This document shows positions 1,027 to 3,768 of a stretch of 5,616 nucleotides of DNA, piece by piece. Numbering within the stretch: the first letter of the stretch is position 1; the number at the start of each line of letters is the position of its first letter. The notes beneath the pieces were generated by a model. The model was not told the origin of the DNA. It saw only the letters and a program-made list of their open reading frames with translations, and made no database searches. This stretch comes from a virus (lineage: Duplodnaviria; Heunggongvirae; Uroviricota; Caudoviricetes), in the IMG/VR virus record IMGVR_UViG_2778261085_000003, positions 1-5,616 of that record. The stretch is one strand, 5' to 3'. A program made the position numbers and the translations under genes.

Positions 1027-1054
1027 AAGATAACACATTGATTGTGTTATCTTT
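1027..1054 (-). terminator. Inverted repeat overlapping the dicA-like stop codon; candidate intrinsic terminator for the repressor transcript
   Basis: AAAGATAACACA (1027-1037) / TTGAT loop / TGTGTTATCTTT (1043-1054) is a perfect 12-bp inverted repeat; on the minus strand it is followed by a run of seven T (plus 1021-1027 is a run of A). Stem is AT-rich, so terminator strength is uncertain; it could instead be a protein-binding palindrome. Confidence 0.35.
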
Positions 1055-1454
1055 TGTTTGTTCGTTGACGGGCTTTTAATAATTCTTCAAAGAGTTTGTT
1101 GAAATTTTTTACTCGGGCGCGCATCTCGGTGAGCTGAGCGTCCTGTTCTGATTCAGGCAATGCATTAAAAAGTTCAAGGAGCTCGTGTTCTTTGGGGGAT
1201 AAAGCAACTGGATCCTCAATAGGTGGTGATGGCTGCTTGTCTTCATCGCCAAATAGAATCCATGTTGGCGAGCACTGCAGTACATTGCTAAGTGCAAAAA
1301 GATTCTTCCCTGTTGGTTCGCTATCATCCCGTTCCCATTGTGAAACCGACACATGAGAAATTTTCAGGGCTTTAGCAAGAGACCTTTGGGTGTATTTGAG
1401 GTTTTTTCGGCGATATCTAATGCGTTCGCCAATGGTTAAATTTTTTGTATCCAT
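1047..1454 (-). CDS. dicA: DicA-like repressor (CI-type, XRE-family helix-turn-helix), 135 aa
   Basis: ORF in track; N-terminal helix-turn-helix segment (QRSLAKALKISHVSVSQWERDDSEPTGKNLFALSNVL); length and sequence closely match my recollection of E. coli Qin prophage DicA; divergent from a Cro-like gene across a short operator-bearing intergenic region. Confidence 0.9.
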   Translation of the reverse strand: MDTKNLTIGERIRYRRKNLKYTQRSLAKALKISHVSVSQWERDDSEPTGKNLFALSNVLQCSPTWILFGDEDKQPSPPIEDPVALSPKEHELLELFNALPESEQDAQLTEMRARVKNFNKLFEELLKARQRTNKR

Positions 1455-1536
1455 AGTTAGCCAATGCTAAATCTTATTGACTATGTTTTTGTTAACATCT
1501 ATTTTGTTAGTCATGACTAACAATTGGGTGCTTTAA
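1455..1536. promoter_or_regulatory. Divergent promoter/operator region between the repressor and Cro-like genes
   Basis: Two 14-bp palindromes: TTAGCCAATGCTAA (1457-1470, imperfect) and TTAGTCATGACTAA (1507-1520, perfect). Plus-strand candidate promoter for the Cro-like gene: TTGACT (1477-1482), 17-nt spacer, TATTTT (1500-1505), so the predicted start site falls inside the second palindrome. Minus-strand candidate -10 TAAGAT (plus 1471-1476) with a weak -35 would give the repressor a very short leader. Confidence 0.55.
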
Positions 1537-1767
1537 ATGCTTAAAACAGACGCGCTTTTGTATTTCGGTTCAAAAACAAAACTTGCACAAGCTGCTGGTA
1601 TTCGTTTGGCTTCGCTTTATAGCTGGAAAGGGGATCTAGTTCCTGAAGGTCGCGCGATGCGCCTGCAAGAGGCATCCGGCGGGGAACTTCAGTACGACCC
1701 CAAAGTTTATGACGAATATCGTAAGGCAAAGCGTGCGGGGCGGTTGAACAATGAAAATCACCCCTGA
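1537..1767 (+). CDS. dicC: DicC-like Cro-type regulator, 76 aa
   Basis: ORF in track; first gene divergent from the repressor; helix-turn-helix-like segment (GSKTKLAQAAGIRLASLYSWKG); length and sequence match my recollection of Qin DicC. Confidence 0.85.
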   Translation: MLKTDALLYFGSKTKLAQAAGIRLASLYSWKGDLVPEGRAMRLQEASGGELQYDPKVYDEYRKAKRAGRLNNENHP

Positions 1768-2284
1768 ACAGGTTTGTGAGGCTCTGGATGCCTGGGTATG
1801 CCGACCAGGAATGACACAGGAGCAGGCGACGATATTAATCACGGAAGCATTCTGGGCTCTGAAAGAACGCCCGAACATCGATGTTCAACGCGTCACGTTT
1901 GATGATGGCGCGGTTGATCAACGGGCACTGGGCGTTAACCGGGTGAAGATATTCGAACGCTGGAAAGCTATCGACACCAGGGATAAGCGGGAAAAATTCA
2001 CGGCGCTGATTCCGGCAATTATGGAGGCTATCCGGATCAGTGATTTCAGGTTGTATTGTGAAATTACTGACGGAAAAAGCATTACGTACATGATCTCCGG
2101 GTTAAACAAAGAATATGGCGATGTGGTGGAGTCCGGGCTGCTTTTTGCGGATCCAGCTGTTGTGGAACGTGAGACTGACGAGCTTATAGAAAAAGCTATT
2201 GCTTTCAAGCATGCGTATCGTCAGCAATACCAACATTACTTTGCAGATAAACAAATATCTTCCTGGGGTTCGTATGAGTATTGA
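1751..2284 (+). CDS. YdaT-family protein, 177 aa
   Basis: ORF in track; starts 17 nt before the DicC-like stop; the N-terminal MKI... and the segment REKFTALIPAIMEAIRISDFRLYCEITD resemble Rac prophage YdaT (REK..LIPAI..R..C motif) as I recall it; the position after the Cro-like gene is typical of this family. Confidence 0.7.
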   Translation: MKITPEQVCEALDAWVCRPGMTQEQATILITEAFWALKERPNIDVQRVTFDDGAVDQRALGVNRVKIFERWKAIDTRDKREKFTALIPAIMEAIRISDFRLYCEITDGKSITYMISGLNKEYGDVVESGLLFADPAVVERETDELIEKAIAFKHAYRQQYQHYFADKQISSWGSYEY

Positions 2285-3314
2285 TGCACTGCAATGGGCT
2301 AAAAAGGTGAAAACCGGCAGTTCATCAAGTAAGTCAGTATTGACCTGGCTTGCTGATATGTGCGGTGCCGATTTGTGTGCATACCCGTCAGTATCTGCAC
2401 TGGCTGAAGTAACTGAACTGAACAAAAAGACTGTTCAGGACAGCTTACGACACCTGATGGAGATTGGGTTAATTGTTGATACCGGTGAGAGAAAAGGCCG
2501 AACAAAGCAAATCGTGGTGTACCGACTTATCGGTGTAGAAGAAAGTGTTGCCGAGCCTGAATACACCCAAAAACGGGAGTCTTTAAAGGTGGGTAAAATT
2601 GGTGCTGTTAATAAAAACAGTACCGAAAACGGTTATGTTTCAGCACAAAACAGACCCAAAAACGGAACTCTTTTCTGCATGGAAAATAACCAAAGACACC
2701 CAAATTTTCCATCAAAGACACCCAAAAACGGATCACGGAACCCAAAGGAACCAAAAGATCTAAACCCCACACATAACGCACGTGAGAGTGCTCCGACCAG
2801 TGAGCTGGAGGTTTTGTCGTTACAGGCAACGCCCCCTGAATTCCTGGATGGCTTGAGCGAACCTATCGGAAAATTTCCGATGACCAATGGTTGGCATCCG
2901 TCGCCTGATTTTCGACGGCGGGCTGCACTGTGGGGAGTTGCTCTGCTGGAGCCGGAATTTACACCTGCTGAACTTGTCGCATTCCGGGATTACTGGAGTG
3001 ATGAGGGAAAAGTGTTCACGCAGGTTCAGTGGGAGCAGAAATTCGCCCGCCACGTAAATCACGTCAGGGCGCAGGTTAAACCAGTCAGCAAGGGAGTAAA
3101 CCATGCAGCAGCACCAGGTGGCACCGAATCACGGGCAGTTCAGGAAATTCGGGCAGCACGTGAGAAGTGGGAACGTGAAAACAGATTTATCAGCGACGGA
3201 AACGGCCTGGAAGCTGTGGGAACTCATGGGGGAGATTTATTCGAATCGCTGGACCCAGAAGAACGGTGCCGCGCCTACGAAGCTCTGGATTGCACAGATT
3301 GGCGCGATGACTGA
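2274..3314 (+). CDS. Phage replication initiation protein: N-terminal helix-turn-helix DNA-binding domain plus DnaT C-terminal-like domain
   Basis: Track ORF begins at 2199; I prefer the in-frame ATG at 2274, which overlaps the upstream stop (ATGAGTATTGA, stop at 2282-2284). N-terminus (SVLTWLADMCGADLCAYPSVSALAEVTELNKKTVQDSLRHLMEIGLI) looks like a winged helix-turn-helix of phage initiators. The C-terminal segment GKFPMTNGWHPSPDFRRRAALWGVALLEPEFTPAELVAFRDYWSDEGKVFTQVQWEQKFARHV resembles the C-terminal region of E. coli DnaT (..RLAALWGVAL..YW..EGKVF..VQW..) from memory. The 3' end is uncertain because of overlap with the next gene. Confidence 0.8.
   Translation: MSIDALQWAKKVKTGSSSSKSVLTWLADMCGADLCAYPSVSALAEVTELNKKTVQDSLRHLMEIGLIVDTGERKGRTKQIVVYRLIGVEESVAEPEYTQKRESLKVGKIGAVNKNSTENGYVSAQNRPKNGTLFCMENNQRHPNFPSKTPKNGSRNPKEPKDLNPTHNARESAPTSELEVLSLQATPPEFLDGLSEPIGKFPMTNGWHPSPDFRRRAALWGVALLEPEFTPAELVAFRDYWSDEGKVFTQVQWEQKFARHVNHVRAQVKPVSKGVNHAAAPGGTESRAVQEIRAAREKWERENRFISDGNGLEAVGTHGGDLFESLDPEERCRAYEALDCTDWRDD
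2563..2757. repeat. Iteron-like direct repeats inside the initiator gene (candidate replication origin)
   Basis: Exact ACCCAAAAACGG at 2565-2576, 2654-2665 and 2720-2731; variant ACCGAAAACGG at 2622-2632; CAAAGACACCCAAA at 2691-2704 and 2712-2725; GGAACC(C)AAAG doublet at 2737-2757; all in the same orientation, next to an A+T-rich stretch (about 2585-2620). Confidence 0.5.
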
Positions 3315-3768
3315 GCAGCAAATCCGGCAGGTCTGCCGCCAGTGCATGGACCGCTGCCGGGCGGGTGAAACATGGCCTCCTGACCTTGCTGAGTTTGTGG
3401 CGCTGATTTCAGAAAGCGGAGCCAATCCATTCGGTCTGACAGTGGATGCCGTGATGGAGGAGTACCGTCGCTGGCGCAATGAGTCTTGGCGATACGACGG
3501 AAGCGATAAATATCCGTGGTCTCAGCCTGTGCTGTATCACATTTGCCTCGAGATGCGTTCAAAGGGGATTGAGAGCCAGATGACCGAAGGGGAGTTAAAA
3601 CGACTTGCAGAACGGCAGCTGACGAAATGGGCAAAGCATGTTGGTAATGGACTGAGCGTTCCGCCAGTCCGGCGACAACTGGCGGCCCCCAAACGCCCGT
3701 CGGGACCAACGCCAATTGAGTTGCTGAAACAGGAGTATGAACGCCGGAAAGCAGCTGGGTTTGTTTGA
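3103..3768 (+). CDS. Lambda P-like replication protein (helicase loader), 221 aa if started at 3103
   Basis: ORF in track; the ATG at 3103 has a strong ribosome-binding site (AAGGGAG about 6 nt upstream). Recalled lambda P aligns over the body (PDLAEFVAL vs PGQFVAW; YPWSQPVLYHICLEM vs YPWKSNAHYWLVTNL; MTEGELKRLAERQL vs LTDAELRRKAADEL) and weakly from about residue 60 (KLWIAQIGAMTEQQ vs RQWVLAFRENGITTMEQ). Alternative starts are ATG 3226 and ATG 3307 (ATGACTGA overlap with the upstream stop). Confidence 0.7.
   Translation: MQQHQVAPNHGQFRKFGQHVRSGNVKTDLSATETAWKLWELMGEIYSNRWTQKNGAAPTKLWIAQIGAMTEQQIRQVCRQCMDRCRAGETWPPDLAEFVALISESGANPFGLTVDAVMEEYRRWRNESWRYDGSDKYPWSQPVLYHICLEMRSKGIESQMTEGELKRLAERQLTKWAKHVGNGLSVPPVRRQLAAPKRPSGPTPIELLKQEYERRKAAGFV

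What the first reader, a model, noticed from the sequence alone, without database searches (positions are those of the whole stretch)
2563..2757. Iteron-like direct repeats embedded in the replication initiator gene: candidate prophage origin
The 12-mer ACCCAAAAACGG occurs exactly three times in direct orientation (2565-2576, 2654-2665, 2720-2731), with a one-off variant at 2622-2632, a longer shared unit CAAAGACACCCAAA at 2691-2704 and 2712-2725, and a GGAACC(C)AAAG doublet at 2737-2757. They sit in the low-complexity linker of the initiator (protein segment rich in PKNG/TPKNG) between its DNA-binding domain and its DnaT-like domain, beside an A+T-rich stretch. In phage lambda the origin is a set of iterons plus an AT-rich region inside gene O, bound by the O N-terminal domain; the same logic would apply here. 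Spacing is irregular (57, 32 and 66 bp between unit starts), unlike the tightly phased lambda iterons, so the architecture may be distinct.
Basis: partly seen in the sequence, partly recalled or inferred. Interest (0 to 1): 0.6.

Follow-up and report, generated by a model that had tools for sequence, protein, structure and literature searches.

The report
Prophage replication origin inside initiator gene
The repeats are very probably the replication origin of a lambda-like prophage, written inside the gene of the protein that should bind it; this design is well known from phage lambda, so this is a well-supported new example, not a new kind of system.

Summary
ACCCAAAAACGG occurs exactly three times (2565, 2654, 2720), with a variant at 2622, an AT-centred variant at 2699 and a GGAACC doublet at 2737-2757. 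All lie in the disordered linker of an O-type initiator (winged-helix N-domain, DnaT-like C-domain), upstream of a lambda-P-like loader.

The repeats are a DNA element, not a peptide repeat. The same 11-mer is read in different frames within this gene and at the matching site in Edwardsiella phage EPP-1. Only 1 of 20,000 synonymous recodings reproduces the repetition. In 82 homologous loci the motif is about 200 times denser in the linker than outside, always on the coding strand and in all three frames. In nine enterobacterial homologues only 8.8% of third codon positions are invariant, yet the last iteron is 11/11 invariant.

The layout resembles lambda ori, and a true Phage_rep_O initiator uses the same core. 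A conserved 10-13 bp GAAYC repeat sits where lambda has its AT-rich region. The mosaic junction with Rac-type genes falls just after the array.

Caveats: binding and origin activity are untested, close E. coli copies show no extra conservation, and this window lacks a strong AT-rich element. Verdict: interpretation supported; new member of a known kind.

The parts
2274..3314 (+). O-type replication initiator gene (346 aa) that contains the array
   Evidence: ORF. Pfam DnaT domain residues 201-267 (E 9.5e-18) and a sub-threshold HTH_36 hit. RefSeq relatives are annotated 'DnaT-like ssDNA-binding domain-containing protein'.
2274..2546 (+). Coding region of the N-terminal winged helix-turn-helix domain (residues 1-91), the presumed iteron-binding domain
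   Evidence: AlphaFold2 model: mean pLDDT 83.6, four helices plus a beta-hairpin wing; the near-invariant DTGERKGxTKQ lies at the wing, residues 69-79. Foldseek top hits are MarR/ArsR-type winged helices, TM about 0.5.
2560..2583 (+). Iteron 1 (AATACACCCAAAAACGGGAGTCTT; core 2566-2576), read as T-Q-K-R
   Evidence: A 27-nt block around it is identical in Edwardsiella phage EPP-1, which is only 67% identical across the N-terminal half of the gene.
2586..2609 (+). Decayed iteron copy (core-equivalent GGTAAAATTGG, 2592-2602), the 'AT-rich stretch'
   Evidence: It aligns with intact ACACCCAAAAACGG in EPP-1, L009, L010 and L011. It overlaps the least stable 30-mer of the gene, 2594-2623.
2616..2639 (+). 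Iteron 2 (AACAGTACCGAAAACGGTTATGTT; core 2623-2632), read as T-E-N-G; ACCGAAAACGGT has 4-bp inverted-repeat arms (ACCG/CGGT) around the AAAA centre
   Evidence: CCGAAAACGG is the second commonest core in the family. Position 2630 is C>T in 26 of 41 distinct close relatives.
2649..2672 (+). Iteron 3 (AACAGACCCAAAAACGGAACTCTT; core 2655-2665), read as P-K-N-G
2693..2716 (+). AT-centred variant element (AAGACACCCAAATTTTCCATCAAA; core 2699-2710), next to last in the array
   Evidence: A T-tract or AAATTT-centred variant lies 22-24 bp upstream of the last iteron in 20 of 75 related loci (21 within 45 nt), against 1 of 75 in a control window. Lambda's next-to-last iteron ITN3 also has an AAATT centre.
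2715..2738 (+). Final iteron (AAGACACCCAAAAACGGATCACGG; core 2721-2731), read as P-K-N-G here but as P-Q-K-R at the same site in EPP-1
   Evidence: The core is 11/11 invariant in nine enterobacterial homologues whose third codon positions are 8.8% invariant. It has 0 variable columns among 41 distinct close relatives.
2737..2757 (+). GGAACC(C)AAAG doublet, the local form of a family-wide GAAYC repeat with 10-13 bp period; candidate unwinding or single-strand loading element
   Evidence: Of the 75 loci (out of 82) with a terminal element, 70 have 2-4 GAAYC within 62 nt after the last iteron (background 0.11). Spacing is 10-13 bp and the element is read in all three frames. A 10-bp GGAACCCAAA duplication occurs in 2 relatives. 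It sits where lambda has its AT-rich region.
2753..2762 (.). Mosaic junction: similarity to Rac-type ydaU (DUF1376 N-domain, same DnaT-like C-half) begins here
   Evidence: BLAST hits to Rac-SA53 and many E. coli prophages cover only query positions 480-1041.
2874..3074 (+). Coding region of the DnaT-like single-strand DNA-binding domain (residues 201-267)
   Evidence: Pfam PF17948. PDB DnaT C-terminal domains 6aep, 4ou6 and 2ru8, E 1e-16 to 3e-19.
3307..3768 (+). Lambda-P-like helicase loader gene (the start may lie upstream at 3226 or 3103)
   Evidence: Pfam Phage_lambda_P, E 1.7e-16. Annotated 'replication protein P' in RefSeq.
1047..1767 (.). Immunity switch (dicA-like repressor 1047-1454 on the minus strand, dicC/Cro-like gene 1537-1767 on the plus strand). 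The rightward operon runs through ydaT-like, O and P, and therefore through the array
   Evidence: Pfam HTH_3 and P22_Cro hits. Annotations dicA and dicC in PPompW phages.

Best explanation
Window 2560-2757 is the replication origin of a Qin/PPompW-type lambdoid prophage, embedded in the linker-coding part of its O-type initiator gene. It holds four A-tract iterons, one decayed copy and one AT-centred variant, all in direct orientation. Each unit is an imperfect palindrome (NNCCC-AAAAAC-GGGNN) preceded by AA. The array ends in a GGAACC doublet. Proposed mechanism, inferred by analogy with lambda: dimers of the N-terminal winged-helix domain bind the iterons and, helped by the phased A-tracts, wrap the DNA into an O-some-like complex. 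The adjacent GAAYC region is strained and opened. The DnaT-like C-terminal domain and the downstream P-like protein bring host DnaB helicase to the opened DNA. Transcription from the cro-side promoter passes through the origin, as in lambda. The peptide motifs TQKR, TENG and PKNG are by-products of translating the origin in a disordered linker that tolerates frame changes. Shown here: the repeat anatomy, DNA-level (not peptide-level) conservation, linkage to the N-domain, the domain folds and the lambda-like layout. Inferred: binding, unwinding and origin activity.
For: The repeats are exact and non-random. Given the protein, only 1 of 20,000 synonymous recodings gives three copies of a 12-mer, and only 1 of 20,000 gives four motif matches. 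Copy 1 is read in a different frame from copies 3 and 4, and the final copy is read in a different frame in EPP-1. In 82 homologous loci CC[CG]A4-5CGG occurs 123 times in 29.5 kb of linker against 8 times in 390 kb outside. All linker hits are on the coding strand, in frames 52/59/12. Among nine enterobacterial homologues third codon positions are 8.8% invariant, but the last core is 11/11 invariant. Relatives have regular 24-bp arrays (Proteus, Providencia, Superficieibacter). The arms covary to keep the palindrome. A motif-first scan of viral contigs found 120 contigs with a motif pair, and 111 of them have the family N-domain within 520 nt upstream on the same strand. One exception is a Phage_rep_O (lambda O family) gene with TTACCCAAAAACGGGTA iterons followed by an AT-rich tract. 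Lambda ori has the same order: iterons, an AAATT-centred next-to-last iteron, a last iteron, GGGGGACAC and an A-rich tract. The mosaic junction lies directly 3' of the array. The N-domain is a winged helix with an invariant wing motif, the C-domain is DnaT-like and a P-like loader follows. A deposited 8,461-bp circular E. coli record carries only dicA-cro-ydaT-O-P plus a few accessory genes, with the same array.
Against: There is no experimental evidence for binding or origin firing. Among 41 distinct close relatives, mostly E. coli prophages, the repeat region has more variable columns (0.26) than the N-domain (0.13). Cores 1-3 are not spared, and core 2 carries C>T at 2630 in 26 of 41. Only the final core is invariant. 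In this window the segment at the lambda AT-rich position (2737-2766) is about 57% A+T by direct count and is not among the four least stable 30-mers of the gene, unlike lambda, EPP-1 and Acinetobacter. Sequence homology of the N-domain to lambda O was not demonstrated here (hhalign probability 19%). Six viral contigs carry the array in non-coding DNA with no family N-domain nearby, so the linkage to this N-domain is not absolute. The circular 8.5-kb record could be an assembly artefact.
Confidence: 0.8

Rival explanations
1. The origin is there by descent but is inactive or weakened in this prophage. One copy has decayed, close relatives accumulate core mutations, and no strong AT-rich unwinding element follows the last iteron.
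For: The decayed copy is at 2586-2609. There is no excess conservation of cores in the shallow E. coli sample, and 2630 C>T is common. The position equivalent to the lambda AT-rich region is about 57% A+T by direct count and is not among the least stable 30-mers of the gene. Many Qin-type prophages are cryptic (established knowledge).
Against: The O and P reading frames are intact. Four units match the family consensus, including the AA flank. The final iteron and the GGAACC doublet are intact and invariant. The same array occurs in an 8.5-kb circular record whose only replication genes are this O/P pair.
Confidence: 0.2
2. The repeats are binding sites for the initiator or another protein but serve regulation (autoregulation, copy control, handcuffing) and not initiation; the true origin lies elsewhere.
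For: Iterons in plasmids also act in copy control (established knowledge). No strong AT-rich element is adjacent in this window.
Against: No further copies occur in the promoter region or elsewhere in the window, and only 8 occur in 390 kb of flanks across 82 loci. The layout and position match lambda ori. In lambda, EPP-1 and Acinetobacter relatives the least stable DNA of the gene lies directly 3' of the last iteron.
Confidence: 0.07
3. The repeats exist because the protein needs a repetitive PKNG-type flexible linker; the DNA repetition is a consequence of peptide repetition.
For: The region codes low-complexity peptide (PKNG, TENG, TQKR), and AlphaFold predicts disorder from residue 91.
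Against: The same DNA core is translated in three frames across the family (52/59/12) and in two frames within this gene. The matching copy is read in a different frame in EPP-1. Synonymous recoding almost never reproduces the DNA repeats. Six contigs carry the array in non-coding DNA.
Confidence: 0.03
4. The repeats are a by-product of slippage or recombination at a mosaic junction (a module-exchange hot spot) with no sequence-specific function.
For: The junction with Rac-type genes lies at about 2753. A-runs are slippage-prone. A 10-bp duplication and frame-shifted database variants exist.
Against: A by-product would not keep an 11-nt core invariant across Alpha-, Beta- and Gammaproteobacterial phages, with covarying palindromic arms, fixed orientation and a fixed order of element types.
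Confidence: 0.03

Closest known systems
Phage lambda ori inside gene O (four 18-19 bp iterons plus an AT-rich region, bound by the O N-terminal domain; P loads DnaB)
   Same: The origin lies in the linker-coding middle of the initiator gene. The repeats are direct and are imperfect palindromes around an A-tract (lambda ATCCCTCAAAACGAGGGA; here ACACCCAAAAACGGGAGT). The next-to-last unit is AT-centred. After the last unit lambda has GGGGGACAC, the wider family has GGGACACGG, and this window has GGATCACGG. A P-family loader gene follows, and the N-domain plus iterons behave as one exchange module (PMC7466680). A Phage_rep_O initiator with the same ACCCAAAAACGGGT core exists.
   Different: The N-domain is HTH_36-like, not Pfam Phage_rep_O, and homology was not shown here. 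The C-domain is DnaT-like, not Phg_2220_C. Spacing is wider and uneven (22-44 bp against 20-24). A short GGAACC doublet replaces the 80% A+T tract.
P22 gene 18 and phage L gene 18 origins (repeats inside the O-analogue gene; L has six copies of TGTCCAACGGA, predicted origin)
   Same: These are iterons of distinct sequence inside the coding region of distantly related O-type initiators, predicted from sequence in the same way. The L repeat resembles the GTCC...CGGA arms seen here (PMC8022706).
   Different: These phages pair the initiator with a DnaB-type helicase (gene 12), not a P-type loader. Their initiators were not detected by tblastn with this N-domain.
DopC/DopE, a domesticated O-like/P-like pair of Cellvibrionales and Oceanospirillales
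   Same: The domain make-up is the same: an HTH_36 N-domain plus a DnaT C-terminal motif, followed by a lambda-P-like protein (PMC5509034).
   Different: The authors found no iteron-like sequences in dopC. Here the iterons are present and the context is a prophage immunity and replication module.
Iteron plasmid origins (RK2 oriV/TrfA, pPS10, R6K) with winged-helix Rep proteins and 13-mer repeats in the unwinding element
   Same: A winged-helix initiator, direct repeats and an adjacent short-period repeat where strands open and the initiator contacts single-stranded DNA (PMC4081077, listed and not read in detail; otherwise established knowledge).
   Different: In those plasmids the iterons lie outside the rep gene, DnaA boxes are usual (none here), and the Rep fold is WH1-WH2, not a single winged helix plus a DnaT-like domain.

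Membership tests
Lambda-type origin embedded in the initiator (O) gene | Three or more direct repeats within the initiator reading frame, between the N-terminal DNA-binding and C-terminal domains | tested here: met
   Four A-tract units, one variant and one decayed copy at 2560-2738, residues 98-162, between the winged helix (1-90) and the DnaT domain (201-267).
Lambda-type origin embedded in the initiator (O) gene | Each repeat is an imperfect inverted repeat, consistent with dimer binding | tested here: met
   The core is CC(C)-A4-5-C-GG(G). Flanking arm positions are complementary more often than column frequencies predict (0.61 against 0.38, and 0.56 against 0.29). ACCGAAAACGGT at 2622-2633 has 4-bp inverted-repeat arms.
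Lambda-type origin embedded in the initiator (O) gene | Repeats conserved at the DNA level beyond what the protein requires | tested here: met
   This holds at deep divergence. It does not hold in the shallow E. coli sample except for the last core.
Lambda-type origin embedded in the initiator (O) gene | A+T-rich unwinding region directly 3' of the last iteron | tested here: inconclusive
   In lambda, EPP-1 and Acinetobacter L019 the least stable 30-mer of the gene is at that position. In the window 2737-2766 is about 57% A+T by direct count, and the minimum is inside the array at 2594-2623. A conserved GAAYC repeat occupies the position.
Lambda-type origin embedded in the initiator (O) gene | The initiator N-terminal domain binds the repeats specifically | not testable with these tools
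   Only indirect evidence is available: the winged-helix fold, the invariant wing motif and the co-occurrence of domain and motif.
Lambda-type origin embedded in the initiator (O) gene | The fragment supports replication with O and P supplied in trans | not testable with these tools
   The only hint is a deposited 8,461-bp circular record, NZ_CP148379.1, carrying dicA-cro-ydaT-O-P.
Lambda-type origin embedded in the initiator (O) gene | A helicase-loader gene of the lambda P family immediately downstream | tested here: met
   PF06992, E 1.7e-16, for 3103/3307-3768.
Pfam Phage_rep_O (lambda O N-terminal domain family) | The N-terminal domain matches PF04492 above threshold | tested here: not met
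   The window protein has no PF04492 hit and only a sub-threshold HTH_36 hit of 20.7 bits. Lambda O hits PF04492 at 5.7e-36. The hhalign probability between the family profile and lambda O is 19%. The literature reports HTH_36 in lambda O by HHpred (PMC5509034).
Iteron plasmid origins (Rep_3/RepA/TrfA type) | Iterons in non-coding DNA beside the rep gene, usually with DnaA boxes | tested here: not met
   The array is inside the initiator reading frame. There is no TTWTNCACA match in the window.
DopC/DopE domesticated pair | Chromosomal, host-congruent, without iterons | tested here: not met
   The context is a prophage (dicA/dicC immunity, DUF1627, DUF977, Ead/Ea22) and iterons are present.

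The most novel reading that the evidence does not exclude
The ACCCAAAAACGGGT iteron, with its fixed order of element types and the terminal 10-13 bp GAAYC repeat, may be one ancient origin design. It would be shared by at least two initiator N-domain families (HTH_36-type and Phage_rep_O-type) in phages of Alpha-, Beta- and Gammaproteobacteria. If so, many unrelated prophages carry origins with near-identical initiator sites and could cross-activate or interfere with each other. The GAAYC repeat would then be an undescribed unwinding or single-strand loading element that can replace a classical AT-rich tract. The initiator linker would be a translated origin whose reading frame is free to drift.
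Probability: 0.35. Interest if true: 0.6.

Novelty: new member of a known kind. Interest (0 to 1): 0.4.

Why it matters
It gives a concrete, testable origin for a very common class of E. coli prophages; at least 907 of 5426 complete genomes carry this gene nearly full-length. It also gives a simple sequence signature: CC[CG]A4-5CGG arrays ending in GAAYC repeats. That signature locates the presumed origin in many phages and prophages across Proteobacteria whose initiators are annotated only as 'helix-turn-helix' or 'DnaT-like' proteins. It also explains an odd low-complexity linker (PKNG, TENG, QKR) as a translated DNA element. The near-identical core across distant initiators raises the testable question of cross-talk between co-resident prophage origins.

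Tried and rejected
- Profile comparison of the family N-domain with lambda O gave only 19% probability, so I do not claim homology from my own data.
- A sequence search of the PDB with lambda O found nothing, so no structural comparison with lambda O was possible.
- The Rac-SA53 ydaU gene (DUF1376 N-domain, same C-half) showed no comparable repeats. The 'N-domain plus own iterons' rule could therefore not be extended to that family.
- The shallow population test on 41 distinct close relatives did not show extra conservation of the repeat region or of cores 1-3. I report this as evidence against.
- Clustering N-domains to look for covariation between initiator and iteron was inconclusive. Acinetobacter loci often use CCAACAAYGG or CCCAACGTTGG centres, but the clusters mixed core types.
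- There were no DnaA boxes, no Rfam family and no promoter-like or terminator-like sites in 2200-3400. The two GATC sites flanking the doublet are not more than chance for the window.
- A full-text search for the motif found only unrelated primer sequences. Searches for iterons in this initiator type found only lambda/Stx, phage L/P22 and DopC papers.
- I considered programmed frameshifting on CCCAAAA and rejected it, because the motif occurs in all three frames.
Full report
**Context.** The window is the immunity and replication region of a Qin/PPompW-type lambdoid prophage. It holds:
- a dicA-like repressor (1047-1454, minus strand)
- a dicC/Cro-like gene (1537-1767)
- a YdaT-like gene (1751-2284)
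- an O-type initiator (2274-3314)
- a lambda-P-like loader (to 3768)
- DUF1627, DUF977 and Ead/Ea22-like genes

The initiator has a sub-threshold HTH_36 hit at residues 36-67 and a clear DnaT domain at residues 201-267. That domain matches solved DnaT C-terminal single-strand DNA-binding domains at E 1e-16 to 3e-19. An AlphaFold2 model of residues 1-101 gives a confident winged helix for residues 1-90 (mean pLDDT 83.6). The family's near-invariant DTGERKGxTKQ lies at the beta-hairpin wing, and residues 91 onward are disordered. The nearest solved folds are MarR/ArsR-type winged helices. The exact protein occurs in several NCBI assemblies. About 94%-identical copies of the gene, nearly full-length, occur in at least 907 of 5426 complete E. 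coli genomes.

**Observation.**
- No shuffle of the window gave any 12-mer three times (0 of 2000).
- With the protein sequence held fixed, only 1 of 20,000 synonymous recodings gave a 12-mer three times, and only 1 of 20,000 gave four matches to CC[CG]A4-5CGG.
- Copy 1 is translated T-Q-K-R, the variant T-E-N-G, and copies 3 and 4 P-K-N-G. One DNA word is therefore read in more than one frame within a single gene.

**Related sequences.** Edwardsiella phage EPP-1 is an isolated phage. Over the N-terminal half of the gene it is 67% identical at the nucleotide level.
- It keeps a 27-nt block around iteron 1 unchanged.
- It has five A-tract units plus one AT-centred element; one unit is close to a perfect palindrome (ACACCCAAAAACGGGTGT).
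- It reads the last unit as D-P-Q-K-R-D where the window reads T-P-K-N-G-S.

I fetched 80 further loci encoding homologous N-domains from one-per-species genomes. They come from Enterobacterales, Morganellaceae, Acinetobacter, Burkholderiales, Sphingomonadales and others. I also fetched 80 near-identical viral contigs.
- Across 82 loci the motif occurs 123 times in 29.5 kb of linker and 8 times in 390 kb elsewhere (both strands counted), about 200-fold denser.
- Every linker hit is on the coding strand, in frames 52/59/12. This yields the peptides PKNG, QKR/TENG/PENG and PKT.
- Thirty-nine of the 82 loci carry this exact motif. Most of the rest are Acinetobacter loci that use centres such as CCAACAAYGG or CCCAACGTTGG.
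- Proteus, Providencia, Superficieibacter and Phaseolibacter relatives have regular 24-bp arrays.
- In nine enterobacterial homologues the N-domain aligns without gaps and only 8.8% of third codon positions are invariant. The final iteron core CCCAAAAACGG is nevertheless invariant at all 11 positions.

The refuting outcome, freely varying synonymous sites with no repeat conservation, was not seen at deep divergence.

**Anatomy of the unit and the array.** From 59 distinct instances, the unit has AA at positions -6/-5 (97-98%), then N4, then CCC-AAAAA-C-GG, usually followed by G-A-C, and a T at +16. The two positions outside the CCC/GGG arms are complementary more often than expected (0.61 against 0.38; 0.56 against 0.29). 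The unit is therefore an imperfect palindrome with a directional A-tract centre. All five units in the window fit this consensus, including the AA flank.

The AT-rich patch at 2586-2609 aligns with an intact unit in EPP-1 and others, so it is a decayed copy. That removes most of the apparent irregularity in spacing.

Two more features recur across the family.
- In 20 of 75 loci a T-tract or AAATTT-centred variant lies 22-24 bp upstream of the last unit (21 have one within 45 nt), against 1 of 75 in a control window. The window's ACCCAAATTTTCC at 2699 is one of these.
- After the last unit, 75 of 82 loci have (G)GGACACGGAAYC or a close variant. In 70 of those 75 it is followed by 2-4 GAAYC words in all, spaced 10-13 bp apart (background 0.11 per 62 nt). 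These too are read in all three frames.

Two close relatives carry a 10-bp duplication that adds a third unit.

**Comparison with lambda.** Lambda ori reads ATCCCTCAAAACGAGGGA, ATCCCCTAAAACGAGGGA, ATCCCTCAAATTGGGGGA, ATCCCTCAAAACAGGGGGA, then CACAAAAGACAC and an 83% A+T tract. It shares these features with the window:
- placement in the linker-coding part of the gene
- palindromes centred on an A-tract
- an AT-centred next-to-last unit
- a GGGACAC-like sequence after the last unit

Of these, 111 have the family N-domain within 520 nt upstream on the same strand. One exception, L210, is a Phage_rep_O protein (PF04492, E 1.2e-31) with TTACCCAAAAACGGGTA units followed by an AT-rich tract. The same core is therefore used by a member of lambda O's own family. 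Six other exceptions carry the array, inverted relative to its GAAYC end, in DNA with no long reading frame and no family N-domain nearby. This shows that the array exists independently of being translated. It also shows that the link to this N-domain is strong but not absolute.

**Modularity.** Similarity to Rac-type ydaU genes (DUF1376 N-domain, same DnaT-like C-half) starts at window 2753, directly after the GGAACC doublet. EPP-1 carries the same N-domain and array fused to a Phg_2220_C C-domain. So the winged helix, the iterons and the GAAYC repeat travel together as one module. The classic lambdoid hybrid phages behave the same way: O N-domain and ori specificity go together (established knowledge).

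**Evidence against, and limits.**
- Among 41 distinct close relatives the repeat region is more variable than the N-domain (0.26 against 0.13 variable columns).
- Cores 1-3 are not spared, and core 2 carries C>T at 2630 in 26 of 41. Only the final core is invariant. This fits relaxed selection in cryptic prophages or dispensable outer iterons, but it does not support constraint at that depth.
- The least stable DNA of the gene lies directly 3' of the last iteron in lambda, EPP-1 and Acinetobacter L019. In the window that segment is about 57% A+T (direct count) and the minimum lies in the decayed copy.
- Homology of the N-domain to lambda O was not shown here. It rests on the HHpred statement in PMC5509034.
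- There are no DnaA boxes, Rfam families, promoters or terminators in the region.
- Nothing here tests binding or firing. The only functional hint is an 8,461-bp circular E. coli record with dicA-cro-ydaT-O-P, a few accessory genes and the same array, reminiscent of lambda-dv. It could be an assembly artefact.

**Literature and novelty.**
- The origin-inside-O design is textbook for lambda and the Stx phages (PMC7466680).
- P22 gene 18 and phage L gene 18 have been described as carrying their own iterons. For L this was a sequence-based prediction of six TGTCCAACGGA repeats (PMC8022706).
- The HTH_36 plus DnaT-C plus P-like arrangement was described for the domesticated DopC/DopE pair, in which no iterons were found (PMC5509034).
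- I found no paper that describes this iteron, its spread or the GAAYC repeat. The library is limited to open-access texts.

I therefore rate it a new member of a known kind. It comes with a useful family-wide generalisation, but it is not a new kind of system.

**Verdict.** My confidence that this is the initiator-binding iteron array of the prophage origin is about 0.8. I put about 0.2 on the origin being weakened or inactive in this particular prophage.

Noticed in passing
window 3103-3314: The reading frame of the P-like gene is open from 3103 in the window and from the equivalent position, or further upstream, in three relatives. It overlaps the 3' end of the initiator gene by up to 212 nt. 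Gene callers disagree on the start (3226 or 3307). The Pfam P match begins before the annotated ATG at 3307. Of 15 substitutions against Rac-SA53 in the overlap, 8 fall on third positions of the P frame, which suggests the P frame is the constrained one.
   Followed up: partly
window 4966-5385: An Ead/Ea22-like reading frame is interrupted by a single in-frame TGA at 5098-5100 (...VFVCQKRN*EADGVIAECH...). This is a likely nonsense mutation or pseudogene in this prophage copy.
   Followed up: partly
L170 (NZ_CP148379.1, whole record): An 8,461-bp record deposited as a circular E. coli plasmid. It consists of the dicA-like repressor, cro, ydaT, O and P of this prophage type plus hokD, rem, an ATPase/HNH pair and a DUF5677 gene, and it has the same iteron array. 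It looks like a natural lambda-dv-like replicon, or it may be an assembly artefact.
   Followed up: partly
L199:2260-2400 (also L243, L253, L259, L265, L273): The same iteron and GAAYC array, with 24-bp phasing, lies in DNA without a long reading frame. It is inverted relative to its GAAYC end, and no family N-domain was found nearby; in L243 one lies 7.7 kb away. In L199 the neighbours are an AAA+ ATPase with a C-terminal HTH and small unknown ORFs. The initiator used there is unknown.
   Followed up: partly
L210:2740-2880: A Phage_rep_O (lambda O family) initiator gene carries TTACCCAAAAACGGGTA and TTACCCAAATTCGGGTAAC units followed by an AT-rich tract. This is the same iteron core as in the window, in a different initiator N-domain family.
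   Followed up: partly
proteins P0016, P0020, P0022 (Klebsiella relatives): Database variants of the initiator change reading frame inside the A-runs of the iterons (...IPKTGSG..., ...RFFRQT...) and end early. The A-tracts therefore look like indel hot spots, unless these are sequencing errors.
   Followed up: no
window 2679-2712: A perfect 9-bp inverted repeat, ATGGAAAAT / ATTTTCCAT with 16 nt between the arms, overlaps the AT-centred variant element. The left arm lies in an 11-15 nt segment that is absent from EPP-1 and accounts for the wider 44-bp spacing here.
   Followed up: no
window 2736/2737 (relatives; H46): Two close relatives carry a 10-bp GGAACCCAAA duplication that adds a third GGAACC unit, so the copy number of the terminal repeat varies within E. 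coli.
   Followed up: no
L001:3490-3520 (EPP-1, also L009-L012): In the Phg_2220_C-type relatives the GAAYC/A-rich segment is followed by a G+C-rich inverted repeat (CCCCCTAGCCCCCAAGGGGGAGGGG). It recalls the palindrome to the right of the lambda AT-rich region and is absent from the window.
   Followed up: no
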